The notes under the pieces: model-generated
Seen by the model: the letters and a program-made list of their open reading frames with translations, nothing else
What the model was told of the DNA's origin: nothing
Database searches by the model: none
IMG/VR virus record: IMGVR_UViG_3300031576_000019
Coordinates: 26,774-90,773 of that record
Length of the DNA: 64,000 bases
Source: a virus
Strand: one strand, 5' to 3'
Part shown: positions 41,801-55,847 of the stretch, piece after piece
How the letters are laid out: the number at the start of each line of letters is the position of its first letter
How positions within the stretch are numbered: position 1 is the first letter of the stretch
Program-made: the position numbers and the translations under genes

Positions 41801-43024
41801 GGCCAGCGCCAAGGTGCCCGAAGGCGAAGTACCTGTCCCTGGTGAATTGTGGGTGATTTCCAGAACATCTGCGCTTGGCACCACCAGTTTGCGTGTTGCA
41901 TTGTCACCAGTCTCGTCCAGAATAGTTGTGGTGTCCGTCCGATAGACGCGCACCATCCCCACACAGTAGAGATAATTTCCAACTTGGTGTATCTTGCCCT
42001 TGATTTCTGTGGCTGTGATGGGCAGGCCAAACTCAATAAAACTATCCCGATCCAGGGCGGTCCAATCAACACCGTTGGGGGAGTGTAACAAAACTTCCAT
42101 TTCGGGTGAGTACCCATTCTGGTTGTCCCGCTTAATACGAGCCGTCAAAACAATTTTGCCATTGATAATTGAGGCCCGACAAGGGTAAAACTTGGTATAT
42201 TCGTCGGGGAAGATGGGACGCGGATCGCCCCAGTTGCCCTGATAGCACGACACCGCATAATGACGATTCGTGTTGCCCTGACTGTAAATGATCAATGCGC
42301 CGCCTTTTGCCAATCCGTCTGTGTCAGGCAACGGCACAGCATCAAAGAAGGTGGTGCTATAGAAGCCTGCTCCCGTCGCCAATGGAGGAAAGGTCGTAGT
42401 GCCATAAATGCGGCGCGGCATCTCCGAAGTGCTCCATACCCCGCCCGCCAATACCACCCGTTCAACACGTACCGCCCATCCATAGATTGAGCAGACATAC
42501 AGCTCGGCGGTGGTGGCCGAGACGGCCACAGGCGCAATCGTGTAGGACGAACTTCCAAAAGCAAGATTCAAGAGCACGGCAACAGTCGGTGCGCTCCATG
42601 TGACCCCATCATCCACCGAAGTCTTGAAGTTAAGGAACTGTCCACTCGCATAATAGAGATAGATCGTTCCATTGGTCGCCTGAATGAGTCCTGGATTACA
42701 GTAGTTTTGAGTGGTAGTGGCCAAGTTGGTCCAAGCCACTGTCCAGTTGGAGGCAGTGCTGGGCGTGACCACGCGCTGGACGTGCAGACCCACCGTTCCG
42801 GTATAGGCGCGTAGAATCGTGCCCGCCTGAGTAGCCAAACTGTCTCCATAGCAAAAACGCTCTCCCAGTGTGGTCACCTCGTCGCCTGGAAGACCAAAAG
42901 GATTACTGGGAGTAATGGCAAAGAAATCCCAATCCATTAGCGTGTTCCGCACAGTTACGCGCGCTAATGGATAGCGATGATTGGCCAGTCCTGCATCTTT
43001 GAGAGTAGTGCTTATAGTTCTCAT
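38813..43024 (-). CDS. Large tail-tip/hub protein with an Asp-box and carbohydrate-binding-like modules
   Basis: SVDDGVTW Asp-box, VQIELGY hub-like segment, NTGFE CBM-like start. Confidence 0.65.
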   Translation of the reverse strand: MRTISTTLKDAGLANHRYPLARVTVRNTLMDWDFFAITPSNPFGLPGDEVTTLGERFCYGDSLATQAGTILRAYTGTVGLHVQRVVTPSTASNWTVAWTNLATTTQNYCNPGLIQATNGTIYLYYASGQFLNFKTSVDDGVTWSAPTVAVLLNLAFGSSSYTIAPVAVSATTAELYVCSIYGWAVRVERVVLAGGVWSTSEMPRRIYGTTTFPPLATGAGFYSTTFFDAVPLPDTDGLAKGGALIIYSQGNTNRHYAVSCYQGNWGDPRPIFPDEYTKFYPCRASIINGKIVLTARIKRDNQNGYSPEMEVLLHSPNGVDWTALDRDSFIEFGLPITATEIKGKIHQVGNYLYCVGMVRVYRTDTTTILDETGDNATRKLVVPSADVLEITHNSPGTGTSPSGTLALANGDGTYLNHAIVKKGSEVQIELGYKTTAGDEYVTVLQGVIGGVERATSAGQETLRLDLRDRLFTRLKDYKSPVYRALNSQLKHFDPCDLMDSLYVVHGDSWIAMAANMAGGNTGFEAPLYNAEWSQYDTGATGTYGFNPDQYYSGSYSMRISKTGGATTANFGVSRSLPAVLKDTAYTIEVKIHITAIAGGAKTIRLEAGGNWGVAGAAASVVVDQTDVTTEWATLSTGFTPSVDSATGNYVRIFFDDASTGTCYIDDLSLIPNVSGTLNYSSQTVDGIAFSTSPNETEDFDISAKVSFRGTVTAESSSVGLIGLGVDNKNFLVFRITKGTTNNLLFQRCRDGIYTSIAIASATVSVNVNYRMRFVHTGGKFRCYLTTDATTLMNWGLPKITQDWVDSTLPGGQSLQLICPSDNGKGKVGVFARIAPLNFYSYGLDKMSNTIALRVYGDSRWSEVPSSGYVQIEDEEIYYGAKTTYSNVPDMNDTGFAWAAERLPGEVWFPQAIEGYDHRVDLKVTTPTNPNDEVFGYKNYAVTFPECAIPGITYRIDLTTYALPGQNIEYPAGATLRVHCASNIPDVAESPSRRIFGDPETMTANIAPCLYNCVRGWGDTSPVAHPDQALAFTFCDEFVQLESFMALDYVPDENIESVLTRTTYMAGARLPTFGSAYSLTSSTSTSAIQAASLTRKDFTAHFTSAPIATGNWVSLRFRANSNSTGLVMRIENTSGTYYCRLYQNTDFTNYVESHTLPTDIIGASSFVLIRVVATGNFITVYVNNAHAATFYTTLFNASALNYIYFQQATGTLYNLRVPELDMRRDGFSIDNDVAGLQLIGNAIQDRPIKYFSKSGGSLYFSVFDTRDVLNTLTTTTLRDSDSENITEAVSFLRIYADEIVEVMDPGLMADYGFVMGIRQMSRSTAAQAADMATRMFREIKESIETHGMEVGAILNIENEDKVVISYTLVATSRAVLKTVIVNGYDFTFSPGNLSLTIGSRKFIS

Positions 43025-43461
43025 ACGGTCTGCTCAAAGGTAATAGTGATGTAGTACCAAGCGAGTGTGCCCGTTAAGTTATAGGTCACGTTTTCTACTG
43101 AAAGGTCGCCGGTGAGGAAAATACTTACACTATCTCCGATCCCGTCACCGTCTGTGTCCACGTTGGAGAAAAAGGTGATGATGGTTGAAGGTGAACCGTT
43201 GGGATTGCTATAAGCGAAGAAGCTCTCTAAGTCGGCCCGCGTGCCATAGTTTGAGTCCAGCTCCGTGTGGCGCAACTTGACGGTCATTTGCCACCGCTTC
43301 ACAATCGGCCCGTACTGCACATCAGCATCCCCAGTTAGAGCGCGGGTGACCGTCTGTATCTTGGACTGAATCGGCAAAGGGCCCGCCAAGACCCTCAGGC
43401 GTTTATCCAAAGTGCTGGTTGAATTGCGAAACCGACAATACGCGAGTGTGGACGCGGCCAC
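43021..43461 (-). CDS. Distal tail (Dit-like) protein
   Basis: Size and position between the tape measure and the hub. Confidence 0.5.
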   Translation of the reverse strand: MAASTLAYCRFRNSTSTLDKRLRVLAGPLPIQSKIQTVTRALTGDADVQYGPIVKRWQMTVKLRHTELDSNYGTRADLESFFAYSNPNGSPSTIITFFSNVDTDGDGIGDSVSIFLTGDLSVENVTYNLTGTLAWYYITITFEQTV

Positions 43462-43530
43462 AGAAACAGTCCTTTCCTATAGAAAGTTTAGCGATTGCTA
43501 TTCATCTGTAGTCTGTATCTTGGGGCAAAG

Positions 43531-44262
43531 CTAATCTTTGGGGAAGTTCAATTTTGCTTTTGAGCCACGTAATTCTTTGGCCATGGCGTCGTAGGCGTGG
43601 GCGGCCTTAACGGGGTCGGTGAAATGGCCCAAGAAGATGTTCTTTCCGTTTTTCTCAATGCCACATCTCCAAGCATTGTTTCTTCCACCCGCCCAAGAGA
43701 CACCTCTGTAGCCACTGGTGTTGTTGGAAGGAATTGTGGAGTTCCTCTTCTGAGGAGCCTCGGAAACTTGGTCGGGGAAATTGAGGACGGCCCATTGACC
43801 ATGTAGTTCGCGGGCGGCTATATCATAAGCACGAGCGGCTTCTTCGGGCGTATTAAACACACCGAGATGATGGTACTTGTGGTTGGCGGTAATGCTTGCC
43901 TGCCACGCCTTGTTATTCAGATATACGCCTTTGTAACCGCTAATCGTATGCTGTCGTCCTCGTCTGTTTTGCATATTCTGGCATTGGGTTGCTAGACGGA
44001 GATTGTCACGGCGGGTATCAAGGGTATTTCTGTTTTTGTGGTCAACCTTCTCAGAACTCAGAAGCCCTCGATCCAACATACGTTCCATAACAAGACGGTG
44101 CAAAGATTTCTTTCTCCTCTTGCCCATCTCGTATCTTTGTGTAATCGCGTAAATGTGCAGTCCATTTGATGTGTATGGACACCATACAAGTTCGCATAAA
44201 TCCGCATCCTCATCATCTATCAAGAAGGTAAACGGAGTATTTTGAGTGAGTATCTCAACCAT
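43531..44262 (-). CDS. HNH endonuclease with two AP2 domains (homing-endonuclease type)
   Basis: VDHKNRNTLD.R..NLR; two SGY(K/R)GV...HLG.F...AA.AYD..A.EL.G..A.LNFP-type units. Confidence 0.9.
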   Translation of the reverse strand: MVEILTQNTPFTFLIDDEDADLCELVWCPYTSNGLHIYAITQRYEMGKRRKKSLHRLVMERMLDRGLLSSEKVDHKNRNTLDTRRDNLRLATQCQNMQNRRGRQHTISGYKGVYLNNKAWQASITANHKYHHLGVFNTPEEAARAYDIAARELHGQWAVLNFPDQVSEAPQKRNSTIPSNNTSGYRGVSWAGGRNNAWRCGIEKNGKNIFLGHFTDPVKAAHAYDAMAKELRGSKAKLNFPKD

Positions 44263-44268
44263 CTCAGC

Positions 44269-44316
44269 CTCTGTTTGCTATCTGTTTCATTAGGAGTAAA
44301 ATATGAACATGGAAAC
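44269..44316. repeat. 48-bp perfect direct repeat, copy 1 (copy 2 at 53417-53464)
   Basis: ctctgtttgctatctgtttcattaggagtaaaatatgaacatggaaac is identical at both loci. Confidence 0.95.
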
Positions 44317-44413
44317 AATCATGCCATACCTATGTATGGGCTTTGTTCTTCTAATTTCGCTCGTCGCTATTGTGGGCGCAATGGCCTTGCTTGGAAAAAT
44401 TATGCACGGCTAG
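44303..44413 (+). CDS. 36-aa single-TM peptide (type I toxin-like), copy 1
   Basis: AGGAG RBS; MNMETIMPYLCMGFVLLISLVAIVGAMALLGKIMHG; paralogue at 53451. Confidence 0.7.
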   Translation: MNMETIMPYLCMGFVLLISLVAIVGAMALLGKIMHG

Positions 44414-44651
44414 AACACTCATCATTCTCACCCAGGATGGCGCATAACAGCGCCATCCCCTCCCATAACTTCGGGAAGTCTCGGTCAGCAAGAGGTACGC
44501 CCTTCTTCGGAAACGTCTGGCGGGCCAAGTCGAAATGGCGGCGAGCCGTCTGCAACTCGCTTATCTCCCGCGATGAGTTCCACTCTCTGAAGTGCTGGAG
44601 TCCTGTGTCGCCCAGGGCAAAAGAAGCCTCGGCAGTAAAAGTAGTCTTCAT
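44400..44651 (-). CDS. Hypothetical 83-aa protein
   Basis: AGGAG RBS and its own consensus promoter. Confidence 0.6.
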   Translation of the reverse strand: MKTTFTAEASFALGDTGLQHFREWNSSREISELQTARRHFDLARQTFPKKGVPLADRDFPKLWEGMALLCAILGENDECSSRA

Positions 44652-44687
44652 GTTTGTCTCCTGTATGGGTTGGCCGATAATCTGCCC

Positions 44688-44763
44688 ATAGTATCACACA
44701 CATCATTGTGTGTCAAGACACACAATGAGTTTCATTGACAAAACCTGTATGTTAGTGCATAAT
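44688..44763. promoter_or_regulatory. Back-to-back sigma70 promoters with a palindromic operator
   Basis: - strand: TTGACA(44716-44711)-17-TACTAT(44693-44688). + strand: TTGACA(44735-44740)-17-CATAAT(44758-44763). Palindrome tcattgtgtgtc-aa-gacacacaatga at 44703-44728. Confidence 0.8.
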
Positions 44764-44770
44764 GACACAT

Positions 44771-44965
44771 ATGCCTACCCGAGTGAGAATTCCATTTTCG
44801 ACAACCCTTGACCCCGACATCTTGGATGCGGCACGAGCAAAGTCAGAGGAAACTGGCCTGCCACTATCTACGGTGGTTGAGAGATTTCTGGCTCACTGGG
44901 TCAATGGGGGTTCTGTCCCCCCCAAGCAGGCGGTAGAGAGAGGACATCCACCAAGATCAAAATAA
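44771..44965 (+). CDS. Ribbon-helix-helix DNA-binding protein, probably leaderless
   Basis: FSTTLDPDIL..A...SEETGLPLSTVVERFL; ATG 7 nt after the -10 box. Confidence 0.7.
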   Translation: MPTRVRIPFSTTLDPDILDAARAKSEETGLPLSTVVERFLAHWVNGGSVPPKQAVERGHPPRSK

Positions 44966-45000
44966 CTCTACCCAATCCCTCCAAGTTGGAGGGATTTTTG

Positions 45001-48000
45001 TTAGAGCGCGCTCTGACGACGAAGCGTCTTAGCTTGCCGCCGCTCAATCCTGGCCGCAATCTGATCACCGTCCAGAATAACATAAACATCGCCATATCCG
45101 CCATTTCCCTCCAACTTGGAGGAACCAGGGCGGGGAAGGTCAGGGGGTTGACTATTCAGGGGGTAAATCGAAACATATTCATCCTCATACTCGCCTACTC
45201 GAAGCAGTTGGTTTTTGGTTGCCAAGAACTGACGGCCCGAAGCAACTGGAATAGCCTCTTCGCCGCCACTATTTGAACTACCACCCGTAGCGGGCGGGAC
45301 ATAGTTCGGTGGGTGAGCCACATTCGCGGCATCTTCCAGACTGGCATTACCCAGCCACTGGAACATATTCCACAGCCAGTCACCGACGCCATTGTAGAAC
45401 TTGGCCGAGGTGTCCATCATATAGCGCAGGCCAGCTTCGTTCTCGCCCTGTTTTCGGCCAAGTTCTGTGGCGGCCGCTTGGGCATCTTTCATTAGTTTGG
45501 CATAGTGTAGACCGGAACCAATACCCGCCAGCTGGTTCTCCTGCTGGAGCTTCCAATGCGTGCGCTCCAGGTTTCGCTGTTCATCCTCAATCGCTTCGCT
45601 CTCCGCCAGCCAGCCCCGCTGTGCCGCAATCCGGTCAGACTCTAACGCCTGATTTTCATAGAAGTTTCCCTTTTCCATGTCCATGCGTTGCATCGAGAGC
45701 TTGAACATTTCCTCTGACCGGTTCTGTTCAACCGCTAGACGCTCCACCTGGGTCTTGAATTGTTCCGCCGCCCGGACGGTTTCAGTCTTGTAGCGGTCAT
45801 CCTCATCCTTCCACAACTTGCGCTGTCGTGACTCAACTTTGTTTTGCTGTGTCTCCTCGGCGTTGTGGTCAAGGGTGGTGCGCTTCTTTTGCCTTTCAAG
45901 TTGACGCCGATCCCGGCCCGTCGAGAAACGGATGTCCTCATCAATATCCTCCATCGCCCAACCAAAGTGCTGTTGGTTTTGACCGCGCTGGAAGGCAAAG
46001 TCTTGTGATTGCCAGTTGCGTGATTGGGCGCTTTGCATCCGACCAAAGGAGAAATCCTCTAACTGATAGCCCCGTTGAAGGTTGACCTGCTGGCCCCGGA
46101 AGGAGAAATCTTCTTGTTGCCAACCCTGTTGTGTCACAGCCTGGGCACGGTTGAAGTCCCAGCCAGCCTGGAATTGTCGGCCACGCATCTCTAGTCCGCG
46201 CTGAGAGAAGGCTAGATTACCTTGCGCCTGAGTCCGTTGGAGTTGGGTTGACTCATCCTGTAAGGCCCACATTCCACGGCCTTCCTGAATGGCCGAGGCG
46301 GTGCCGCCATTGATGGACCAGGGTAAAGCCTCGCCAGGTTTATAAACTGCACTCCCAGCATAAGCACCCAGTCCCTGTCCTGTCGTAAAGGCCATCCCAA
46401 TCTTTACGCCTCGAGCCGAGATACCAGACGAGGCCGCTTGTGACTGGTATGACAAGTCACTCATATAATCCTGCAGCCCCCACATACCACCATAGGTTTG
46501 GCCAACCGCATTTGGCTTGCCCTGACCCACTAGGGCCGCCTGAACCGGAGCAGAGAAATTCTTGAATGACCCCGCGATCAGCGGACTGACCTGCCCACCA
46601 GCACTCAAAATGCTATTGGTGAATAGGCTCATACCTGCCGAGCCGGTCCGCCCACCCGTCTGGTTGGTCACCCATGAGCCTGGCCCACCCATTTGAGCGC
46701 CCGCCATACTCATCGCATTGGCATTGCCTGACAATACACCCTGGGCGATGAGAGCTTCTTGGGGAGTGGCATTCCTCATCGCAACGGCTAGGTCGGCGGC
46801 CCCCTGCTCACCCATAAACTGTCCTAAGCGACCCCGAACATTCTCGCCCAGACTGCGCTGATAACTCGAAGCACCAGACATGGCTAGAGCGTAGGACTTG
46901 GCTCCCGCACCACCCAGGTCAAGCGCCGAAGCCTGAAATAGCTGGCCAAAGCGGCCGGCCCGCTGGGGGTCCTCGGCTAAGAGATTGGAAAAGTTATCTA
47001 CATTCGCAAGCCCCTGTCCTTCCAGCATTGAACGGATAGATTCAAAGCGGCCTCGTTGCACCATTCCTTGGCGACCCAAACCATAGGCGGTCGCATCACC
47101 CTCTGCTGTTCCAAGATCGGCCTGCTTGGTAAATTCAGTTATTCCGCTCCACTTGAATCCGCCTGCTAGTCCCTCCTCTAATTGCCCAAATATACTTTCT
47201 ACCAAACCATGAATAAACTTATCTCGACCAGCCAATTCGCCGGACCGAATTGCTCGGTCAAAGTTCACCTCCTGACCCTCCATCGCCAATAAATTCTCCA
47301 TCCCCAAGCCGCGCGAAGCCGCCCTCATTTGTTCGGGTGTGTATTTTTCAAGAGCGGCATAGGATTTCTGATAGGCCGTATCCATGCTGCCGCCAAGTCC
47401 GGCCTGAAGTTGTTCTGCGAACTGTTCGGGGTCGACGCCTGCCTGCATAGCCCGGAGAATTTTTTCCTCAGTCCCCTTCCAAAACTCTACTGGGGATTCT
47501 TCGCCTCCCTTGCCAGGGCCACGCCAAGCATCTGGGCCCTGCATATAATTCTGGGCTCGTGCCAGACGGGTAGAGATGCCCACGGCTACATCTTCGTCCA
47601 CACCCAAGCGAGCCATCGTGGATTCGTATCCACCAACGCCCGTTACCGCCCGTTGACGCATATAACGCGCACGATCCTCATACGACATTCCCGCCAAATC
47701 GAATTGCGACATCCCCGCCGCCACCTGCGTCTCCTCACCCACCATTTGTTGCGCGCCCGCCGATTGGCTAAACAACCACTGCCCAACTACTCCGCCCCCC
47801 AGTGCATCTCCCAAGCTCAACTGTCCAATACCCTTGTCGCCACCGTAGGTGTTATAGAGCATCTCGTTGAAGTCTTTGGGACTCTTTACATAGTGCGAGG
47901 CAGCACTCATTGCGCCAATACTGCTCGTAACTCCTCCCGCGATAACTCCAGCTGGAATAGCAAGTGGGCCCAGTATTGGCGCGGTCAACATGCCCGTCGC

Positions 48001-51000
48001 AATACCCATCCCAACGCCAGGGCCAAGAACTCCACCAATAACCGAGGCCATATTGTTTCCGCCCATCCCAGATACACCACTGACTACATCGCCCCATGTG
48101 TTGGCCATTGCGTACTGAACCCCCGCTTGCGCTTGTGCAAACTGACCAGCATAGCGTGATGTGGCCAGTCCCGTTCCCCCAAAACCAAGACCGGCCAGTG
48201 CCTGTCCAATGCGTGTGTTAGATTGAGACTGGCCAGACAATGCCTCTAGTGCGGGAGCTGTGACCTGCTGCATGGTCCACGGGAGGTACTGCGCCGACAT
48301 TAGCGCCTGACTCGTGCGATTAAGTTGGGCTAGTGGAGAACGGTCGGACATCGCTTCCGCTTGTGACACCGCCTCACCACTCAAAATACCCGCATCGCTC
48401 AGGCGCTTGGCAAATCTCTCGAGACTAGAGGCATCCGAGCGAGTGCCAGTGGTGGCACCCAAAAACAATTGACGACGCTCCATTTCCATCTCACGGTACT
48501 TCTCAGCCACTTGGGGTGAGACAGCCCCCAGTCGCATCTCAATTGCTTTAGCCGCAGAAGGATAGGCGTCTTTGCTAAAATCCAAATTCCCCCCTGCGAC
48601 ATCGGCCATGACCCCGACCCCGACACCATGCTTTTCGAGAAATTTTCCTTGCTTCTCTGTTAAATCCACAAGCCGGTCCTGATATTTGAGCTGTCGGGCC
48701 TGCACATAATTTAGCCGTTCTCCGGTTTCGCGCATGTTTCTAAAAGTAGCCGTCAGTTCTGTGGATTCCTTTATCATCCCGCCCATGTCTGCCTTCGCAA
48801 AGGCTTCTCCCGCTTGAGCCAGAGTCATCTTGGCTGTCTTGGCCCCACCCGGTCCGCCGCCTGCTTTGCCAGCCCGATAATCGGCAAAGCTCTTTTTGAC
48901 GCTCTCTTCCGTATCGCCCAGCGCCTCCGGTCCGTGTTCCAAGAACCACGCCTTTTCCCCACTATCGTCGGATAATTTCCACGGATCGATGGAAGAAACG
49001 ATATTTTTTAGCGAGCCCATTACACTCGGCTCGGACAGACGACCCGGTGCCTGGAGGGCTCCCCGAATTTTATCGAATGCCTTAAGGGGAACGCTATCGC
49101 GGGCAAACGACCCCTCGGCCCCCCTCATGCCCATCAAGTCCATCGTTGAGAAGTCACCTGTTTCGGTCAGACTCTTAAGGGCCTGAATCATCCGGGTCGT
49201 TTGTTGTGGACCCAGATTCATTTCGTTTAGAGCGTTTTGTTCGGCCTGCTCCTTCATAGCGTATTTAGAATACGATGCCGTTGCCTGAGCCACCTTTGGA
49301 ATAAAATTAGGGTCAGTCGGGTCGTAGAGAGCCGGATTAATAAACGACTGGCCCTGACGGAAACGCTCTGCCCCACCACCCACCTTCTTCTCGGCCTCCG
49401 ACACCATTCGTCTAGCCTCATCCGGTGACATCTTCTCCAGGTTGCGAAGATGCTTGGCCTCGGTCGGCATAATTTTGGCTAAGAGTAAATTGTCTGGATT
49501 TCCCAGTGAGGCATTGGATAATTTGGGAATGGCAAAGTTCAACTTCTTGGCCCAAGTTGCCAGCGTATTGTGGCCGAACATTGTCTCGCCCTTGACGGGA
49601 TAATCTCCAGTCGCGCGAGGATTGATCGCCATTCCGGTCAACCTCCCAAATCGTTGAAGGAAGTCCTCCGCCTGTGGCGCTACAATCATATTGGCCAAGG
49701 TGTTGGGCAGGTCAATCCTGTTCTCGCCCGGTTCAGGCTTGCCGCTATAAAAGCGCACCGTTTCATGGAGGCGCATCCCAAACTCGGCCCAATCAGCGTC
49801 CTTGTCTCCTAAGGGCGCTTTCTCGATCTTCCAGCGCGCGGCCGCCATGGCTTTGATAGCCGTTGGTAAAGTTCCCAACTGTCCCGCCTCGCCCCATGGA
49901 TCACGGCCCAGGACTATTCCCATTGAATTGGCAATCCAACCCGCCTTCTTCGAGGCATCCATCCCCTGCGCCTTGGCGAGTTGTGTCCGTAAGAACGCTT
50001 GTTTCTGTGGGTCATTAATAACCAGTGGAACAAGAGCTGAGGCGTCAGAAAACTCGGGAGCCGTCATCAGCGCTGTCAGCGCATCGGTCATACCCGCATT
50101 TCGGCCACCACCAGCAGCCTTGGTCATAATGCCCGAAACCTTCTCGCCCGGCTTGGGCGCTACGCCCGCTGTAGCCGGTTGCATCCGGTCACGCACAGCC
50201 ACGAGTTTCTCAAAGGCCCCCGAAAAGGCTTCGCTATCCAGCATCTTTTGATAAGCCGGAAGTACAACCTGATTGAACTGGTCTTGTCCGCCCGATAGAA
50301 CAGACAGCACGCGCCCAAAGTTGAACTCTTTGCCCATACCCGCCTTGTACTCCAGCGTCTCGGCCAAAGCCTTCTGAACCGCCTCGGGAGTTGTATGTCC
50401 AAAGGTTCCCAGTTTGTCAACCATCCCCAGCATAGAGGTCTTCAATCTCTCAAAGTCATATTTGCCGGTACTTTTATCAAATCCCCACTCCCGCGCATCT
50501 TTGGCCCACTTGTTGATTTCTTGGGTGCCGAGACCAGAGAACTTCTCGTCCATGAGTTTCTGGCGATTTACAACCTCGTCCGAACTCATCCCTGGCCGAA
50601 TGCCGTTGGCCCGGACCACAAATGCGCGGCCAGTCCGCTGAACACTCAATGCGCCAATACCCGAAATGCCAGACGCATCCGGGTCAAAGTCGCCGATGTT
50701 GATAGACTGAACCTCTTTGTTCAACAAAATCCCGTCGGGGAGATTTGAGGGTGTCACTCGCAAATTGAGCAGGTTGGCATCCGAAATGTTGGGGTTGCGC
50801 CAGGTGTAAGCCCCCACGTTGTTTTCGCGCAGGTAACTCTTAAGCGCCAGAAGTTCCGGGGGTGTCCGAACTTTGAACATTCGCATGAGTTGGGCATCTC
50901 CCAACCGCATCTCGTTAATTGGAACATCCTGAACGCCCGGAAGCGCAGATACCGGACCACCGGTGGCGTTCCTGGGATAGAAGGATGTCAGCGCCTTGTG

Positions 51001-53364
51001 TGTACCCTTTGAGCCATACATTTCTGCCACAGAAGCGCGATGCTTCTGTACCAGTTCAATGGGCACTTCCTGACCCGTCGCCTTGAGCATCAACATCTCC
51101 AAGGCGCTGGTAGCATAAGTGGAACTGTCATTTTCCAGGCCAACAAAACCATCGTCATTGGCCAAGTCTTTTCCCATCCCGCCTCCCAAGGCATAGCGCA
51201 GGTTGCGAACAGATGGCAAGGGGAGAGATTGTTTCACACCGTTCTCAGTATAGGTCATCATAAGTGGCGACCGCGCCTGATGGCGCATGTCAGCCTTGCT
51301 TGCCCCGTTCATCTCTCCCAGAAAGCCCATGGCCGATTCAAGACCATCCAGGAATTCATGTGGCGTAGGAGTTCCCGATCCAGCGTGTCCCTGTAAGGCA
51401 CTGGACAGAGCGGCCTCTGGTAGTTGGGAGGCGTCTAAATCAATCCCGCGCCGAGGCGTGATATTGGGAGCACCGGACATGACTGCCCCAGCGTTGATGA
51501 TCTCGCCGTAAATATCCTGCTTGCCTATACTCTGGCGACTCAGTTGAGAAAATGAACGCGGGTCAGTCTTTGCCATACGCATGGCAACTTCCATTGACAC
51601 CTTTCCGGTTGACCATGGCCAAGCACCAGAACGTGAAAGGGTCTTGGCAAATGGCATTGACATGACCTGTTGACCAGCCGCATTAGTCTTAGCTGAGTTA
51701 CTAATGATGTAGCGTGCCGCCTGTTGAATAGCGGGCAAGTTGGATTCCGTCCATTGGGGAGCTCCGGTCGAGGGATCAATGAGCGCGGCTAGGGCCGGAT
51801 GGTCCCACCCCTCGCGTGCGCCAAAGCCCTCAATCATTGACTGAACACCTGCCAGTGGATTCTTGAAAAAGTCATTGGGTGAAACAGCAAAACCTTGGAA
51901 GCCCCGAGGAGCAAATCCATAGTTTTGTTCGTGGTGTGCCACAAAGACCTTGCTCCCCTCGTGGAACAAGCCATAGTTCCCCTCACCCACTCGTTGTCGG
52001 ACAGCGGTTTCGAGGAAGTCGCGCATCCCACCTTCAATCCGCCGAGTGGCGCCCACCTGTGTCTCATCCCAACTACCCGTACTTCGCCCAAAATGTGGAA
52101 CAGGTGTATCTCGGCCCCCGACTGTGCCCCGCCAGAAACGCTCATTCTTGAATTGGCCCGCCATCCCGTGTGTGCGCCACGCCGTCTGCCGTTCAAGCGA
52201 AACCTGCTGGCCAACCGAAACACCCATACCCGCGGGCATGGATGGATCAAACAGAATGTTGAAGACCTGCGCTTGTCGACCAGTAACGGGTGAACCATCC
52301 GGCGCATATTCCACAATTCGCGTATTGATTTCAGGAACGCTCAGCCTCCCGCCCGTCATACCTCGACCCACATCCCGGTAGCCCGAGACTTGCATGTGTT
52401 TCATCATCTTCATCTCATCACCGGGCTTCTTGTAATTCAGATAACTCACTCGCCCCCTTGAATCCCGCGATGACATCATCCCCTGATAAGTCATTTGCCC
52501 GGTATCAAATCCGTAGACATCATTTGGGTTCCGTGTCCCAAGTGGCGAGCCATCGGAAGATGCGAACTGACCACTCAGATCAGGATTGACCAAGTTTCGC
52601 TTATTGAAGATGCGGTCATTAGGATTTTGGGTTTCGGGGAAGAATTGGGTTGAAGCGATACGCCCCAGTCGGTAGTTACTTTGTGGGGTAAAGGGGTCAA
52701 CATATTGGCCCTCACGCTGTCCAGCCACAAATCGTGGGCCACTCTCTGTCTGACCTGGAGTAGACATCGCCTTGTAGTGTGCGCCCACATCTCTTAATAC
52801 CAGCCGACGCAGAGTATCGTACTGTGTCTCGCCAGGCTCGGATACGATTGATCTTCCGCCTAAATGTAGCCCGCCCGTCGAATCGCGCCAGAGACGCATA
52901 TCCATTCGGTTCTGGCCAGCGATGTTGACCGTTGCATACGCATCCCCGCCCATGGATTTTTGAGGTGGCAAACGCAGGGAAACATCTGCGCTTGGAAACT
53001 TTGCGCGTAAGTCGGCTTCAAGTTTTCGCACCAAGTCGTTGGTGCTGGTCGGCTTGTAACGGTCACTTGTAGACGGGAAAGCATCAAAGCCTGTATCAGC
53101 ATCATCAGGCTCAAGCATCCCCTCATCTTGAATGGGCTGGAAACGAAAAGGGACTTGTGGAATGCGAGATTGCTGAACTCGTGGTGATTGCTCGTACCCC
53201 CCATAATGCGCGTCCGTAGACAACCGCGAGTTAAGGCTTTGGTAGACGGCATCGTAGAGAGTTGGCGGTACCTCACCACGCTCAAAAAGTTCGGCCAGCT
53301 CAGAAAATGCGGTTGTAGGGTTTTGGGCGAGATGCGCTGTCAGACGCTCGGTTGTCCAAGACAT
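45001..53364 (-). CDS. Tape-measure protein with a putative N-terminal two-barrel RNA polymerase domain
   Basis: Follows the tail chaperones. Has Gly-rich hydrophobic segments, 18-aa (W/Y)Q..DF repeats and a C-terminal VGEYEDEYVSIYPL. WRNP...NIGDFDPD at 50802-50677. Confidence 0.8.
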   Translation of the reverse strand: MSWTTERLTAHLAQNPTTAFSELAELFERGEVPPTLYDAVYQSLNSRLSTDAHYGGYEQSPRVQQSRIPQVPFRFQPIQDEGMLEPDDADTGFDAFPSTSDRYKPTSTNDLVRKLEADLRAKFPSADVSLRLPPQKSMGGDAYATVNIAGQNRMDMRLWRDSTGGLHLGGRSIVSEPGETQYDTLRRLVLRDVGAHYKAMSTPGQTESGPRFVAGQREGQYVDPFTPQSNYRLGRIASTQFFPETQNPNDRIFNKRNLVNPDLSGQFASSDGSPLGTRNPNDVYGFDTGQMTYQGMMSSRDSRGRVSYLNYKKPGDEMKMMKHMQVSGYRDVGRGMTGGRLSVPEINTRIVEYAPDGSPVTGRQAQVFNILFDPSMPAGMGVSVGQQVSLERQTAWRTHGMAGQFKNERFWRGTVGGRDTPVPHFGRSTGSWDETQVGATRRIEGGMRDFLETAVRQRVGEGNYGLFHEGSKVFVAHHEQNYGFAPRGFQGFAVSPNDFFKNPLAGVQSMIEGFGAREGWDHPALAALIDPSTGAPQWTESNLPAIQQAARYIISNSAKTNAAGQQVMSMPFAKTLSRSGAWPWSTGKVSMEVAMRMAKTDPRSFSQLSRQSIGKQDIYGEIINAGAVMSGAPNITPRRGIDLDASQLPEAALSSALQGHAGSGTPTPHEFLDGLESAMGFLGEMNGASKADMRHQARSPLMMTYTENGVKQSLPLPSVRNLRYALGGGMGKDLANDDGFVGLENDSSTYATSALEMLMLKATGQEVPIELVQKHRASVAEMYGSKGTHKALTSFYPRNATGGPVSALPGVQDVPINEMRLGDAQLMRMFKVRTPPELLALKSYLRENNVGAYTWRNPNISDANLLNLRVTPSNLPDGILLNKEVQSINIGDFDPDASGISGIGALSVQRTGRAFVVRANGIRPGMSSDEVVNRQKLMDEKFSGLGTQEINKWAKDAREWGFDKSTGKYDFERLKTSMLGMVDKLGTFGHTTPEAVQKALAETLEYKAGMGKEFNFGRVLSVLSGGQDQFNQVVLPAYQKMLDSEAFSGAFEKLVAVRDRMQPATAGVAPKPGEKVSGIMTKAAGGGRNAGMTDALTALMTAPEFSDASALVPLVINDPQKQAFLRTQLAKAQGMDASKKAGWIANSMGIVLGRDPWGEAGQLGTLPTAIKAMAAARWKIEKAPLGDKDADWAEFGMRLHETVRFYSGKPEPGENRIDLPNTLANMIVAPQAEDFLQRFGRLTGMAINPRATGDYPVKGETMFGHNTLATWAKKLNFAIPKLSNASLGNPDNLLLAKIMPTEAKHLRNLEKMSPDEARRMVSEAEKKVGGGAERFRQGQSFINPALYDPTDPNFIPKVAQATASYSKYAMKEQAEQNALNEMNLGPQQTTRMIQALKSLTETGDFSTMDLMGMRGAEGSFARDSVPLKAFDKIRGALQAPGRLSEPSVMGSLKNIVSSIDPWKLSDDSGEKAWFLEHGPEALGDTEESVKKSFADYRAGKAGGGPGGAKTAKMTLAQAGEAFAKADMGGMIKESTELTATFRNMRETGERLNYVQARQLKYQDRLVDLTEKQGKFLEKHGVGVGVMADVAGGNLDFSKDAYPSAAKAIEMRLGAVSPQVAEKYREMEMERRQLFLGATTGTRSDASSLERFAKRLSDAGILSGEAVSQAEAMSDRSPLAQLNRTSQALMSAQYLPWTMQQVTAPALEALSGQSQSNTRIGQALAGLGFGGTGLATSRYAGQFAQAQAGVQYAMANTWGDVVSGVSGMGGNNMASVIGGVLGPGVGMGIATGMLTAPILGPLAIPAGVIAGGVTSSIGAMSAASHYVKSPKDFNEMLYNTYGGDKGIGQLSLGDALGGGVVGQWLFSQSAGAQQMVGEETQVAAGMSQFDLAGMSYEDRARYMRQRAVTGVGGYESTMARLGVDEDVAVGISTRLARAQNYMQGPDAWRGPGKGGEESPVEFWKGTEEKILRAMQAGVDPEQFAEQLQAGLGGSMDTAYQKSYAALEKYTPEQMRAASRGLGMENLLAMEGQEVNFDRAIRSGELAGRDKFIHGLVESIFGQLEEGLAGGFKWSGITEFTKQADLGTAEGDATAYGLGRQGMVQRGRFESIRSMLEGQGLANVDNFSNLLAEDPQRAGRFGQLFQASALDLGGAGAKSYALAMSGASSYQRSLGENVRGRLGQFMGEQGAADLAVAMRNATPQEALIAQGVLSGNANAMSMAGAQMGGPGSWVTNQTGGRTGSAGMSLFTNSILSAGGQVSPLIAGSFKNFSAPVQAALVGQGKPNAVGQTYGGMWGLQDYMSDLSYQSQAASSGISARGVKIGMAFTTGQGLGAYAGSAVYKPGEALPWSINGGTASAIQEGRGMWALQDESTQLQRTQAQGNLAFSQRGLEMRGRQFQAGWDFNRAQAVTQQGWQQEDFSFRGQQVNLQRGYQLEDFSFGRMQSAQSRNWQSQDFAFQRGQNQQHFGWAMEDIDEDIRFSTGRDRRQLERQKKRTTLDHNAEETQQNKVESRQRKLWKDEDDRYKTETVRAAEQFKTQVERLAVEQNRSEEMFKLSMQRMDMEKGNFYENQALESDRIAAQRGWLAESEAIEDEQRNLERTHWKLQQENQLAGIGSGLHYAKLMKDAQAAATELGRKQGENEAGLRYMMDTSAKFYNGVGDWLWNMFQWLGNASLEDAANVAHPPNYVPPATGGSSNSGGEEAIPVASGRQFLATKNQLLRVGEYEDEYVSIYPLNSQPPDLPRPGSSKLEGNGGYGDVYVILDGDQIAARIERRQAKTLRRQSAL

Positions 53365-53416
53365 ACAGATACAACCTCTCAAAAGAGGGGGATGGGGTGA
53401 ACATATCCTTTGTAAT

Positions 53417-53464
53417 CTCTGTTTGCTATCTGTTTCATTAGGAGTAAAATATGAACATGGAAAC
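53417..53464. repeat. 48-bp perfect direct repeat, copy 2
   Basis: Identical to 44269-44316. Confidence 0.95.
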
Positions 53465-53576
53465 TACGTTGCCCGAAATGATTGCCATCGCAATATGTTT
53501 CGGGTTTGTGTGGGTGATCGTGATGGGAATCCTGGCTATCCTGATGGCCCTTGTCGGAAAGGTCATCAATGGCTAG
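53451..53576 (+). CDS. 41-aa single-TM peptide (type I toxin-like), copy 2
   Basis: MNMETTLPEMIAIAICFGFVWVIVMGILAILMALVGKVING; same RBS as copy 1. Confidence 0.7.
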   Translation: MNMETTLPEMIAIAICFGFVWVIVMGILAILMALVGKVING

Positions 53577-53725
53577 AACTCTCGTTACGCTTACCAAAGA
53601 TTTGGCACAACAGCGCCATTCTCCTCCAACTTGGAGGAGATGAGAGGTTGCTATTCTTTTGAGGGCCAATCTAATCTTCGGGGAAATTCGCCAAAATGCT
53701 TCTTGGCACGCTTGGAAACAATCTC

Positions 53726-53753
53726 AAACAGGGGTTATTCACCCCTGTTTATT
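53726..53753 (+). terminator. Hairpin, probable terminator of the antisense peptide transcript
   Basis: aaacagggg-ttattca-cccctgttt followed by att. Confidence 0.55.
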
Positions 53754-54007
53754 CAATTGGCGTTGTGCTTTGGAAAACTCCATTACATTCATAAATGCAA
53801 TCAAGCATACCATTTGCATATAGAACTGGTCATTTAGCCCGCCACTCTCGGGTAGCGTGTGAAATTTCTCAACCTGTTCAGCGAGCGCCCACAGGGACGG
53901 GAAGGGGATTTTAGGGAGAGGGCCAACATTCTCTTGGAAGCGGCCAAGTTCAGCGGTGTATCGAAGCACCTCGTCCTGAATATGCTCGGTAATCTCCCCG
54001 ATTATTT
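53739..54007 (-). CDS. Tail assembly chaperone extension (gpT-like, -1 frame)
   Basis: Lies in the -1 frame relative to 54002-54430 and has no good start of its own; LPESGGLNDQ motif. Confidence 0.6.
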
Positions 54008-54430
54008 TCCACCGTCTGGCCCCCACTGAAGGTTGACTTCCACCACCTTCTCGTGGATTTCGTTGGCAACTTCAGGAGGAAGCAGGCCCCAAGCTTTGGC
54101 AAACGCCAATGAGTTCATCGCCAGACGCTTGGTGTTGTTGGAGTTGGTGGCAAACTTGAACAGCGGTTCACCATCTGGGCCTTCAATGTTGCAATCCGCA
54201 ATGGTCAGCTCGACTTCGGTGCGCCGAACCTCCTCCATTGAGACTTTCTGTTTCAATTCAAACTGGTCATTGCCCTCCGTCCACACCCGTGAGGCTTCGG
54301 CGAAGAGTTCACCGCGCTTTTCGTGTTGTGCTTGGCGGGCCTGACGAATAGTGACAAAGGCTTCACCAGTGGGGTCAGCCTTTATTAGTTTGAGGACTTT
54401 CTCGGTGGGAAGGTCAATCTTGAGTGCCAT
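54002..54430 (-). CDS. Tail assembly chaperone (gpG-like)
   Basis: Between the tail tube and tape-measure genes; AGGAG RBS. Confidence 0.7.
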   Translation of the reverse strand: MALKIDLPTEKVLKLIKADPTGEAFVTIRQARQAQHEKRGELFAEASRVWTEGNDQFELKQKVSMEEVRRTEVELTIADCNIEGPDGEPLFKFATNSNNTKRLAMNSLAFAKAWGLLPPEVANEIHEKVVEVNLQWGPDGGK

Positions 54431-54461
54431 TGTAGCGTCTCCTATGAAATATGGACATAGT

Positions 54462-54491
54462 AACGTGGGGGAGTCTAGACTCCCCCACGTT
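54462..54491. terminator. 30-bp perfect palindrome after the tail tube gene
   Basis: aacgtgggggagtct|agactcccccacgtt; no long U-run on the - strand. Confidence 0.5.
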
Positions 54492-54503
54492 CTTTAGAAC
54501 AAG

Positions 54504-55847
54504 CTAGTAAGCAGCGTACTCATTCACCCAGGTCAGGCTGGCATAGTCACCAGTGGCAGGCAGAACCGCTTGACCCTGCAGTTGGAGCGATAAGAAACCA
54601 CCGCCTTCTAGTTGAGGTGAGCTTTGCGGAGTCCAAGTGACGGCCGAGGCCAGCATCTGGAGTGAATACGGAATGGTGCCCGCAGTCGTCGGGACATTCT
54701 TGGGAGCCAGAAGTTTTACGTCCAGGTCCGTCTCAAACGGCGCAGGGTCCCAGACCGTGCCAGAACCCATCATCAACTTCTTGTACAGGGCCTTGTCATT
54801 CCACTTAAGCGTGGCTTGTAGTGTCAGTGAGCGTGACAACACCGCAAAATCATCGGGAAAGGGTGACCCGATAATCATTTCTTGTTGCGGGCTAGTGGTG
54901 TTATTGGCGAATGTCCAAGTCAGGTTGAGAATGGGCAAAGCACTAGCTGAGTAGTTCGGCAGTTTAATGTAACCATTGGCGACACACGAGAGCGGCACGC
55001 TCTTGTAGTCTTCGAGTCCCCCCAGCCACGTCCAGGAAGTAAGCGTGGCACCTTCCTCCCAAACAGGTTCACGGCCCGTCACATCTACACGGGCCGAGAT
55101 AATGCCGTTCTGAGGAGCGTTGATCCGCAGGCCGTTCAACCGACAGTCTTTCCCAATCTCACCAAGGCCATTTGTGGCATCATTGGGTGGCAACAGCTTG
55201 CGAACAGAAATCCAAGGGATGTCGTCGGTCAGGGTGTTGAACTTGGCGACATGACTGTTGCTTTGGTAGAAACCAGTCGTAAAACTGCCTGAGCCAGTTG
55301 CGGCGGAGGTCACGTTGATACCGGTGACGGTCTTGTACTCTTTGACGGAGAGTTTCACGCCACCGGCCACCGTCAGCGTAAAACCCGCCTCGGTGATAAC
55401 CGCATCCGAATCGTCGGTGCCCGAGATGGTAAATGTCACCGTTCCGGTGAAGCCAGTAGGGGTAAACAGAATACGTCGCGCGCTGGGCGGTACAGTGAAG
55501 CCAGTCGTTGTATTCGCCACCACGACCGCATCAATGGCGGCATGGATTCCCGCCGCGCTGATAGCGCCCGGTGTAGTCACCACCTGACCCATAGTGGCTT
55601 TGAACAACCAGCCAAGATCGCCCTGCAGGCGCGGTTGGATAGTGGCTCCGCCTGCGACAAACGCGCCACCCTTATATTGGCCGGTCGGAATAATTGCTCC
55701 GCCAACCTCCAAGGGAAAATTCTTCATATCCTGCACTGGGCCAAAGTCGATTTGGGATGCCATGTGCCGATACCAGGAAGTGGCGAGGGTGCCTTTGGCG
55801 GATTGCATTCCAAAGCCCCACATGCCAGATTGAGCTGTTTGAGTCAT
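54504..55847 (-). CDS. Major tail tube protein
   Basis: Position, beta-rich composition and strong AAGGAG RBS. Confidence 0.7.
   Translation of the reverse strand: MTQTAQSGMWGFGMQSAKGTLATSWYRHMASQIDFGPVQDMKNFPLEVGGAIIPTGQYKGGAFVAGGATIQPRLQGDLGWLFKATMGQVVTTPGAISAAGIHAAIDAVVVANTTTGFTVPPSARRILFTPTGFTGTVTFTISGTDDSDAVITEAGFTLTVAGGVKLSVKEYKTVTGINVTSAATGSGSFTTGFYQSNSHVAKFNTLTDDIPWISVRKLLPPNDATNGLGEIGKDCRLNGLRINAPQNGIISARVDVTGREPVWEEGATLTSWTWLGGLEDYKSVPLSCVANGYIKLPNYSASALPILNLTWTFANNTTSPQQEMIIGSPFPDDFAVLSRSLTLQATLKWNDKALYKKLMMGSGTVWDPAPFETDLDVKLLAPKNVPTTAGTIPYSLQMLASAVTWTPQSSPQLEGGGFLSLQLQGQAVLPATGDYASLTWVNEYAAY

What the first reader, a model, noticed from the sequence alone, without database searches (positions are those of the whole stretch)
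44269..53637. Two paralogous antisense membrane-peptide genes bracket the tape-measure/RNAP gene
Seen: ORFs of 36 and 41 aa (44303-44413 and 53451-53576), below the ORF-track cutoff, on the strand opposite the late operon. They share a 48-bp identical leader/RBS/start and a C-terminal MAL(L/V)GK(I/V).(H/N)G*, while the hydrophobic core has diverged. Similarity continues past the stop (ctagaac.ctc...aacagcgccat), with a 9-bp hairpin at 44435-44458. Known: type I toxins and some superinfection-exclusion proteins are single-TM peptides of this size. Inference: type I TA-like maintenance modules silenced by opposite-strand RNA, or exclusion peptides acting on tape-measure-mediated injection. The direct repeat could also let the ~9-kb TMP-RNAP block be deleted or swapped as a unit.
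Basis: partly seen in the sequence, partly recalled or inferred. Interest (0 to 1): 0.72.

Follow-up and report, generated by a model that had tools for sequence, protein, structure and literature searches.

The report
Paired antisense membrane-peptide genes in phage
Two related 36- and 41-residue membrane-peptide genes with an identical 48-base start region lie on the opposite strand on either side of a phage's giant tape-measure gene. They look like real, self-contained add-on genes of a familiar kind, and their role is untested.

Summary
A 48-bp exact direct repeat (44269-44316 and 53417-53464) occurs only twice in the 90.8-kb phage genome. Each copy heads a + strand ORF (36 and 41 aa) encoding one hydrophobic helix. 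The ORFs are very likely coding. The + frame scores BLOSUM 66 against 38 or less in the other five frames. Second codon positions change least, there are 7 synonymous codon changes, the 15-nt indel is in frame, and the stop is shared. None of 20,000 column shuffles reaches the score. Each unit carries a conserved sigma-70-like promoter match, an AGGAG ribosome-binding site and a 3' hairpin. GC is 45-46% against 53-55% nearby. Thirteen distant relatives have no room for unit 2 between the tail chaperone and tape-measure genes. The best reading is two paralogous moron-type cassettes for small inner-membrane peptides. Unit 2 sits where HK97's gp15 exclusion moron sits. The family is an orphan: no homologue appeared in 5.8 or 1.84 billion proteins, and no Pfam, NCBIfam, PADLOC or Rfam match. 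A type I toxin reading is not excluded, but I found no dedicated antitoxin promoter or known family. The idea that the repeat swaps or deletes the tape-measure gene has no support. The function is inferred, not shown. The scan holds no look-alike on other DNA.

The parts
44269..44316 (+). Copy 1 of the 48-bp identical leader. It holds the -35-like TTGCTA (44275-44280), AGGAG (44292-44296), the -10-like TAAAAT (44297-44302) and the first codons (ATG at 44303 and 44309).
44303..44413 (+). Peptide gene 1: 36 aa, one hydrophobic helix. An in-frame TAA lies two codons upstream.
   Evidence: called as a gene in the protein collection (P0002)
44414..44480 (+). Conserved 3' block of unit 1, with a 9-bp GC-rich hairpin at 44435-44458 and a decayed copy of the genome-wide palindrome.
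53417..53464 (+). Copy 2 of the 48-bp identical leader. It holds TTGCTA (53423-53428), AGGAG (53440-53444), TAAAAT (53445-53450), and ATG at 53451 and 53457.
53451..53576 (+). Peptide gene 2: 41 aa, one hydrophobic helix, with 5 extra codons relative to gene 1.
   Evidence: P0001
53577..53641 (+). Conserved 3' block of unit 2: a small hairpin at 53603-53618, then an extended copy of the 15-bp genome-wide palindrome (core at 53623-53637).
53725..53751 (.). An 11-bp-stem hairpin between the chaperone genes and unit 2. It is terminator-like on the minus strand and could bound the + transcript of unit 2.
45001..53364 (-). The bracketed giant tape-measure-like gene (ATG at 53364; 2787 aa).
   Evidence: no family hit
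43531..44262 (-). HNH-AP2 homing endonuclease gene. Its start codon lies 6 nt from the left edge of unit 1, and its ribosome-binding site overlaps the repeat's first bases.
44400..44651 (-). An 83-aa orphan helical (TPR-like) gene, convergent with peptide gene 1 with a 14-nt 3' overlap. It has its own TTGACA-17-TACTAT promoter (44716-44688) and an AGGAG site. Its transcript would run antisense across unit 1.
53739..54430 (-). Two overlapping tail-chaperone-like ORFs downstream of the tube gene (54504-55847) in the direction of transcription.

Best explanation
The two units (about 44269-44480 and 53417-53641) are paralogous, self-contained moron-type cassettes. Each encodes a small single-pass inner-membrane peptide, with a predicted acidic N-terminus outside and a Lys-bearing C-terminus inside. 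They were added to intergenic gaps on either side of the tape-measure gene and read against the late tail operon. Shown: they are duplicates, the + frame is under protein-level constraint, and unit 2 is an insertion relative to distant relatives. Inferred: host RNA polymerase transcribes them from the conserved TTGCTA-N16-TAAAAT element, independently of the operator-controlled promoters. Translation would start at the AGGAG-led ATG, or leaderlessly at the second ATG, which lies 7 nt after the -10. This would happen early in infection or from a prophage. Late-operon read-through, and the 83-aa gene's transcript at unit 1, would then cover them with antisense RNA and shut them off. The most likely role is a membrane-level accessory function such as blocking DNA entry by related phages, as with HK97 gp15. 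That role is by analogy only.
For: The exact 48-bp repeat occurs only twice in the genome.
Coding signature: BLOSUM 66 in the + frame against 38 or less in the other frames. Codon-position differences are 16/8/22. There are 7 synonymous codon changes, an in-frame 15-nt indel and a shared stop. None of 20,000 column shuffles reaches the score or the hydrophobicity, at only 50.5% nucleotide identity.
These are two of only four small ORFs in the 91-kb genome that have both a ribosome-binding site and a strongly hydrophobic segment.
The promoter-like hexamers and AGGAG are identical in both copies.
GC is 45-46% against 53% for the genome and 55% for flanking genes.
In 13 relatives the chaperone ORF, or its frameshift extension, ends within 54 nt of the tape-measure start. 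Here the gap is 374 nt.
The original moron, HK97 gene 15, encodes a small inner-membrane exclusion protein and lies between the tail chaperone and tape-measure genes (PMC3594210).
A serine recombinase of 490 aa makes lysogeny plausible.
Against: No homologue exists outside this genome, so conservation across phages could not be tested.
The promoter match is only 9 of 12, a level common by chance. It also conflicts with use of the AGGAG site, which lies inside its spacer.
The 3' hairpins lack T-runs.
The untranslated flanks are more conserved (100% and about 70%) than the coding core (50%). This points to an RNA- or DNA-level constraint that this model does not explain.
There is no expression data. 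The exclusion role rests on position and size alone.
Confidence: 0.5

Rival explanations
1. Type I toxin-antitoxin-like modules. The peptides are membrane-damaging toxins whose mRNAs are held silent by complementary RNA: a dedicated small RNA, late-operon read-through, or the 3' end of the 83-aa gene's mRNA.
For: The peptides are under 70 aa with one transmembrane segment. They are duplicated, and similarity extends beyond the coding sequence, as in zorO/zorP and other families (criteria in PMC2887945). The 5' leader is perfectly conserved. The + strand RNA of unit 2 is unusually structured (z -5.4). Unit 1 has a convergent 3' overlap with a well-promoted minus-strand gene. Type I loci are known on prophages (hokW-sokW, PMC8621323; yonT on SPbeta).
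Against: The scan found no sigma-70-like minus-strand promoter inside or just beyond either unit. No Rfam antitoxin RNA or other RNA family matched in 43000-55000. No Pfam or NCBIfam toxin family matched. The hok-like 5'-3' pairing proposed by RNAalifold is no better than 6.6% and 17% of random genome windows. The C-terminal tails (GKIMHG, GKVING) lack the cluster of charged and bulky residues typical of these toxins.
Confidence: 0.17
2. The conserved unit works mainly at the nucleic-acid level on the minus strand. It would be a structured leader, processing site or internal control element ahead of the tape-measure and homing-endonuclease genes, and the + strand ORFs would be secondary or incidental.
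For: The repeat lies directly upstream of two minus-strand start codons (6 nt and 52 nt away). The flanks are more conserved than the ORF core. The shared 3' hairpin is slightly more stable as minus-strand RNA in both copies (-20.5 against -18.5 and -9.5 against -6.1 kcal/mol). A terminator-like hairpin at 53725-53751 precedes the tape-measure gene, which might then need its own control element.
Against: The frame-specific protein signature in the + frame is strong (p < 5e-5 by column shuffle). The minus-strand frames are not conserved and contain stops. No minus-strand promoter match lies in the block. The other leftward promoters I read off are sigma-70-like, carry a GTGAA-N6-TTCAC site, and do not resemble the repeat. 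The distance from the repeat to the downstream start codon differs between the copies.
Confidence: 0.13
3. The direct repeats are recombination handles that let the 9-kb tape-measure block be excised or exchanged, or they are a by-product of homing-endonuclease-driven duplication with no function of their own.
For: The direct repeats span 9148 bp. An HNH-AP2 homing endonuclease gene abuts unit 1.
Against: Forty-eight bases is a short substrate, and deletion would remove an essential tail gene. Relatives keep the giant gene at the same locus, so it is not a mobile cassette. Outside the 48 bp the copies are old and diverged, yet they keep the reading frame. The nearest endonuclease relatives are only 45-46% identical.
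Confidence: 0.05

Closest known systems
HK97 gene 15 moron (gp15, YebO-like superinfection-exclusion protein)
   Same: A small inner-membrane protein gene added as an independent unit between the tail assembly chaperone and tape-measure genes, and absent from related phages (PMC3594210). Unit 2 occupies the same junction.
   Different: There is no sequence relationship: no YebO or any other Pfam hit. Here the gene is antisense to the tail operon and duplicated, with a second copy beyond the tape-measure gene. It is half the size or less. Exclusion activity is untested.
Type I toxins found as duplicated loci (zorO/zorP, ibs/sib, ldr/rdl; yonT and bsrG on the SPbeta prophage; hokW on the Sp5 prophage)
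   Same: Hydrophobic single-helix peptides under 70 aa. Paralogous copies with similarity extending into untranslated regions. A conserved 5' leader and overlap with opposite-strand transcription (PMC2887945).
   Different: I found no dedicated antitoxin RNA, no family match and no charged or bulky C-terminal cluster. The copies are 9 kb apart rather than tandem in one intergenic region.
T5 Llp (early lipoprotein that blocks the phage's own receptor and is encoded beside a tail gene). This comparison is from my own knowledge and was not checked here.
   Same: An envelope-targeted exclusion gene embedded in the tail-gene region and expressed apart from the late genes.
   Different: Llp is a lipoprotein with a signal peptide. 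These peptides have no lipobox: the conserved Cys is preceded by L or I and comes before the helix, not after a signal sequence.

Membership tests
Moron (independent accessory transcription unit in a phage late operon) | Present as extra DNA absent from related phages at the same junction | tested here: met
   The gap between the chaperone genes and the tape-measure start is 374 nt here and 54 nt or less in 13 relatives. Those relatives are distant (tube protein 30-43% identical). The junction of unit 1 could not be compared.
Moron (independent accessory transcription unit in a phage late operon) | Base composition differs from neighbouring genes | tested here: met
   The units are 45-46% GC, against 53% for the genome and 55% for the tape-measure and tube genes. 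Being largely non-coding could also lower GC.
Moron (independent accessory transcription unit in a phage late operon) | Own promoter and terminator | tested here: inconclusive
   TTGCTA-N16-TAAAAT is conserved in both copies but matches only 9 of 12 positions. The 3' hairpins have no T-run. The hairpin at 53725-53751 could end unit 2's transcript. No transcript data exist.
Type I toxin-antitoxin system | Small (70 aa or less) hydrophobic peptide with a transmembrane segment | tested here: met
   36 and 41 aa, with mean Kyte-Doolittle hydropathy of 2.7-2.8 over the best 18 residues.
Type I toxin-antitoxin system | Dedicated antisense or trans-acting small RNA antitoxin | tested here: not met
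   The scan found no minus-strand promoter match in or next to the units. No Rfam family matched. No complementary site of 10 nt or more with regulatory context exists elsewhere in the genome. Long antisense transcripts remain possible, so absence is not proven.
Type I toxin-antitoxin system | Homology to a known toxin family (Hok, Ldr, Ibs, TisB, Fst, TxpA, BsrG and others) | tested here: not met
   Pfam and NCBIfam gave no relevant hit at E up to 10. Full HMMER against 1.84 billion proteins found only the two copies.
Type I toxin-antitoxin system | Toxicity on overexpression, relieved by the RNA | not testable with these tools
   Needs expression assays.
HK97 gp15 / YebO family | Sequence homology | tested here: not met
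   No Pfam hit. The protein atlas scores were at chance level, 0.81 or less.
Superinfection-exclusion protein | Blocks infection or DNA entry when expressed | not testable with these tools
   Needs a host and a superinfection assay. The host is unknown: no relative was found in 185,579 species genomes.

The most novel reading that the evidence does not exclude
The two cassettes and the late operon form a reciprocal antisense switch. Early or prophage-expressed toxin-like membrane peptides are shut off by late read-through. Their own transcription and the identical 48-nt leader, targeted by a shared factor, delay or tune expression of the tape-measure gene and the homing endonuclease. Under this reading the peptides act on the channel that the tape-measure protein forms in the inner membrane.
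Probability: 0.1. Interest if true: 0.65.

Novelty: new member of a known kind. Interest (0 to 1): 0.38.

Why it matters
Small membrane peptides are routinely missed in phage annotation. Some of them decide whether a cell can be superinfected or survives. Here the duplication itself supplies internal evidence of coding for an orphan family, which is rare for ORFs this short. One copy sits at the junction where the first moron, an exclusion gene, was described. If the peptides prove to block DNA entry or to be toxic, they would add a new sequence family to that class. They would also give a compact reagent for studying tape-measure-mediated genome delivery. If not, they remain ordinary accessory genes.

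Tried and rejected
1. Close relatives for a conservation test. GenBank phages gave no match by DNA or by tube protein. IMG/VR gave no match to the tape-measure N-terminus or to the leader pattern. One genome per prokaryote species gave no match. The tube-protein relatives fetched are only 30-43% identical.
2. A hok-like 5'-3' fold-back. RNAalifold paired the leader with the conserved 3' block. The duplex energies (-13.0 and -10.8 kcal/mol) are matched by 6.6% and 17% of genome windows. In unit 1 a local -18.5 kcal/mol hairpin competes with it. I rejected this as evidence.
3. A trans-acting complement. The only 12-nt match, at genome position 7237, is another gene's start-codon context.
4. The minus-strand 96-aa ORF at 53379-53669 as the real gene. 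It has no ribosome-binding site, its composition mirrors the peptide, and its frame is not conserved in copy 1.
5. A third paralogue. None was found.
6. Lipoprotein. There is no lipobox.
7. The protein atlas and PADLOC gave nothing for the peptides.
8. An RNA-polymerase identity for the giant gene. Pfam over the whole ORF and PDB sequences over its first 1300 residues gave no match. I did not test it by fold.

Full report
**Setting.** The window is bases 26774-90773 of a 90,773-bp IMG/VR phage record with 127-bp direct terminal repeats. It has no detectable relative among GenBank phages, either by DNA across the region or by tail-tube protein. Genes from about 26.5 kb to the window's end run on the minus strand. 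Around the finding, the minus-strand order is as follows.
- Tail tube, 54504-55847 (PF18906).
- Two overlapping chaperone-like ORFs, 54002-54430 and 53739-54026.
- A strong hairpin, 53725-53751.
- A 374-nt gap.
- A giant ORF, 45001-53364.
- A 738-nt gap.
- An HNH-AP2 homing endonuclease, 43531-44262 (PF13392 and PF00847; phrog_99 at 3e-55).
- A 146-aa ORF, followed by large lectin-like tail proteins.

The giant ORF has no Pfam or PHROG hit. I call it tape-measure-like from its position, its size, its glycine-rich hydrophobic segments, and the 2200-2900-aa ORFs at the same place in relatives. Pfam over the whole ORF and PDB sequences over its first 1300 residues gave no RNA-polymerase match. 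That claim belongs to another note and I did not pursue it by fold.

**The observation.** It is correct in every particular.
- The 48-bp block at 44269-44316 and 53417-53464 is identical. It is found only twice in the genome, and no shuffle gives even one copy.
- It leads into + strand ORFs of 36 aa (44303-44413) and 41 aa (53451-53576).
- The peptides align with 17 invariant positions: MNMET, a Pro, C-x-GFV, and MAL-GK---G before the stop.
- DNA similarity continues about 65 nt past the stop at roughly 70% identity. This stretch includes AACAGCGCCAT, which is unique to these two sites, a hairpin, and a copy of the genome-wide palindrome that is decayed in unit 1.

**Are they genes?** The duplication allows an internal test.
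- After the identical part, the two ORFs are only 50.5% identical in nucleotides. Even so, the + frame gives a BLOSUM62 score of 66 with no internal stop. The other five frames give 38 or less, and four of the five contain stops.
- Differences fall 16, 8 and 22 on codon positions 1, 2 and 3. Seven codons differ synonymously. The single indel is 15 nt, in frame, and the stop is shared.
- None of 20,000 shuffles of the alignment columns reaches the observed score or the hydrophobicity of both peptides.
- An in-frame TAA two codons upstream of the first ATG fixes the N-terminus.
- AGGAG lies 6 nt before the first ATG.
- In the whole 91-kb genome only four small ORFs combine such a site with a strongly hydrophobic 18-residue stretch, and these are two of them. 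There is no third paralogue.
- Gene callers had already called both (P0001 and P0002).
- The minus-strand 96-aa ORF across unit 2 has no ribosome-binding site and is not conserved in unit 1, so I reject it.

I conclude with about 80% confidence that these are real coding paralogues.

**Anatomy of a unit.**
- Within the identical block lies TTGCTA-N16-TAAAAT, the only promoter-like element conserved between the copies.
- The match is 9 of 12, which is weak by itself. The conserved block begins 6 nt before the -35 hexamer.
- AGGAG sits inside the spacer, so promoter and ribosome-binding site cannot both serve one transcript. From this promoter the RNA would begin at the A of the second ATG, 7 nt after the -10, giving a leaderless message. 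The neighbouring RHH gene has the same geometry: TTGACA-17-CATAAT, then 7 nt, then ATG, with no ribosome-binding site.
- The phage's main promoters carry a GTGAA-N6-TTCAC site. The units lack it, so they would escape that control.
- Downstream, unit 1 has a 9-bp GC hairpin. Unit 2 has a weaker homologous hairpin, the palindrome, and 85 nt further on the 11-bp-stem hairpin at 53725-53751.
- The + strand RNA of unit 2 is unusually structured (z -5.4). Unit 1 is not clearly so (z -2.05).

**Origin.**
- The units are 45-46% GC, against 53% for the genome and 55% for the flanking structural genes.
- In 13 metagenomic and viral relatives (tube protein 30-43% identical) the second chaperone ORF, or its frameshift extension, overlaps or ends within 54 nt of the giant gene's start. 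The 374-nt gap holding unit 2 is therefore an insertion in this lineage.
- The other side of the giant gene is a patchwork of additions. It holds a divergent pair (an RHH-like gene on the + strand and an 83-aa helical orphan on the minus strand) sharing a 26-bp perfect palindrome, then unit 1, then the homing endonuclease. Another first-stage note (e1-6005016) describes that pair in the same way.

**What they are not, as far as can be tested.**
- No homologue of the peptides was found by word search of 5.8 billion proteins or by full HMMER over 1.84 billion representatives.
- There is no Pfam, NCBIfam or PADLOC family. The protein atlas gave only chance-level neighbours.
- No Rfam family matched in 43000-55000.
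- There is no lipobox.

**Mechanism.** The best-supported reading is two moron-type cassettes for small single-pass inner-membrane peptides, expressed apart from the late operon and against it.
- Late transcription reading through from the tube and chaperone genes would be fully complementary to the mRNA of unit 2.
- The well-promoted 83-aa gene, which overlaps peptide gene 1 by 14 nt at the 3' end and has no terminator before the endonuclease gene, would cover unit 1.
- So the peptides are most plausibly made early or from a prophage and silenced late. A 490-aa serine recombinase (Resolvase plus a zinc-ribbon recombinase domain) at 26560-28032 makes a temperate life cycle possible. No tyrosine integrase is present.
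- The role I favour, at about 30%, is interference with genome entry of related phages. This is by analogy with HK97 gp15, a small inner-membrane protein whose moron lies between the tail chaperone and tape-measure genes (PMC3594210). This step is inference only.

**Rivals.**
- The type I toxin reading fits the generic criteria of Fozo and colleagues: 70 aa or less, a transmembrane segment, duplication, and similarity beyond the coding sequence (PMC2887945). However, no dedicated antisense promoter, known family or significant fold-back pairing was found, and the C-terminal tails are only mildly polar.
- A mainly nucleic-acid function on the minus strand would explain one oddity: the flanks (100% and about 70% identity) are better conserved than the coding core (50%). 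It cannot explain the frame-specific signature.
- The recombination-handle idea has no support.

**What remains unexplained.** Why are 48 nt, spacer included, perfectly identical when the rest has diverged to saturation? The options are recent local gene conversion, a bound factor, or an RNA target. I could not decide between them.

**Verdict.** This is a real feature, correctly observed. It is a new orphan family of a known kind of phage accessory gene. Its function is untested. Interest is moderate.

Noticed in passing
window 44688-44996: A divergent mini-module. An RHH-like 64-aa gene (44771-44965) has a TTGACA-17-CATAAT promoter, no ribosome-binding site and an ATG 7 nt after the -10, so it is probably leaderless. 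An 83-aa TPR-like orphan (44651-44400) has a TTGACA-17-TACTAT promoter. The two share a 26-bp perfect palindrome (44703-44728). The RHH gene ends at an extended palindrome with a T-run (44974-44996), which also follows the tape-measure stop. RHH Pfam hits are below threshold (E 0.007).
   Followed up: partly
window 43531-44262 (-): A free-standing HNH-AP2 homing endonuclease lies between the tail genes. Its ribosome-binding site overlaps the first bases of the 48-bp repeat. The nearest IMG/VR relatives are only 45-46% identical.
   Followed up: partly
whole genome; in the window e.g. 44978, 45108, 53623: The 15-bp palindrome CCTCCAA(C/G)TTGGAGG occurs 25 times in 90.8 kb, inside genes as well as between them. 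One copy lies just 3' of peptide gene 2, and a decayed copy lies 3' of gene 1.
   Followed up: partly
window 26560-28032 (-): A 490-aa protein with an N-terminal Resolvase domain and a zinc-ribbon recombinase domain just below Pfam's cut-off. It is a likely large serine recombinase, so the phage may be temperate. There is no tyrosine integrase.
   Followed up: partly
window 53375-53388 (-): A small hairpin (CCTCT-TTTG-AGAGG) contains the only ribosome-binding-site-like sequence ahead of the tape-measure ATG at 53364. It could limit translation initiation.
   Followed up: no
window 53668-53694 (-): A weak minus-strand promoter-like pair, TTGGCG-N15-TAGATT, lies between the hairpin at 53725-53751 and unit 2. 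I read it by eye, and it is below the scan's criteria. If active, it would drive both the tape-measure gene and an antisense RNA over peptide gene 2.
   Followed up: no
genome 8490-8699 and 9649-9846 (left of the window): Two further small ORFs (69 and 65 aa) have ribosome-binding sites and C-terminal transmembrane segments. They lie in the early arm and are unrelated to the peptide pair.
   Followed up: no
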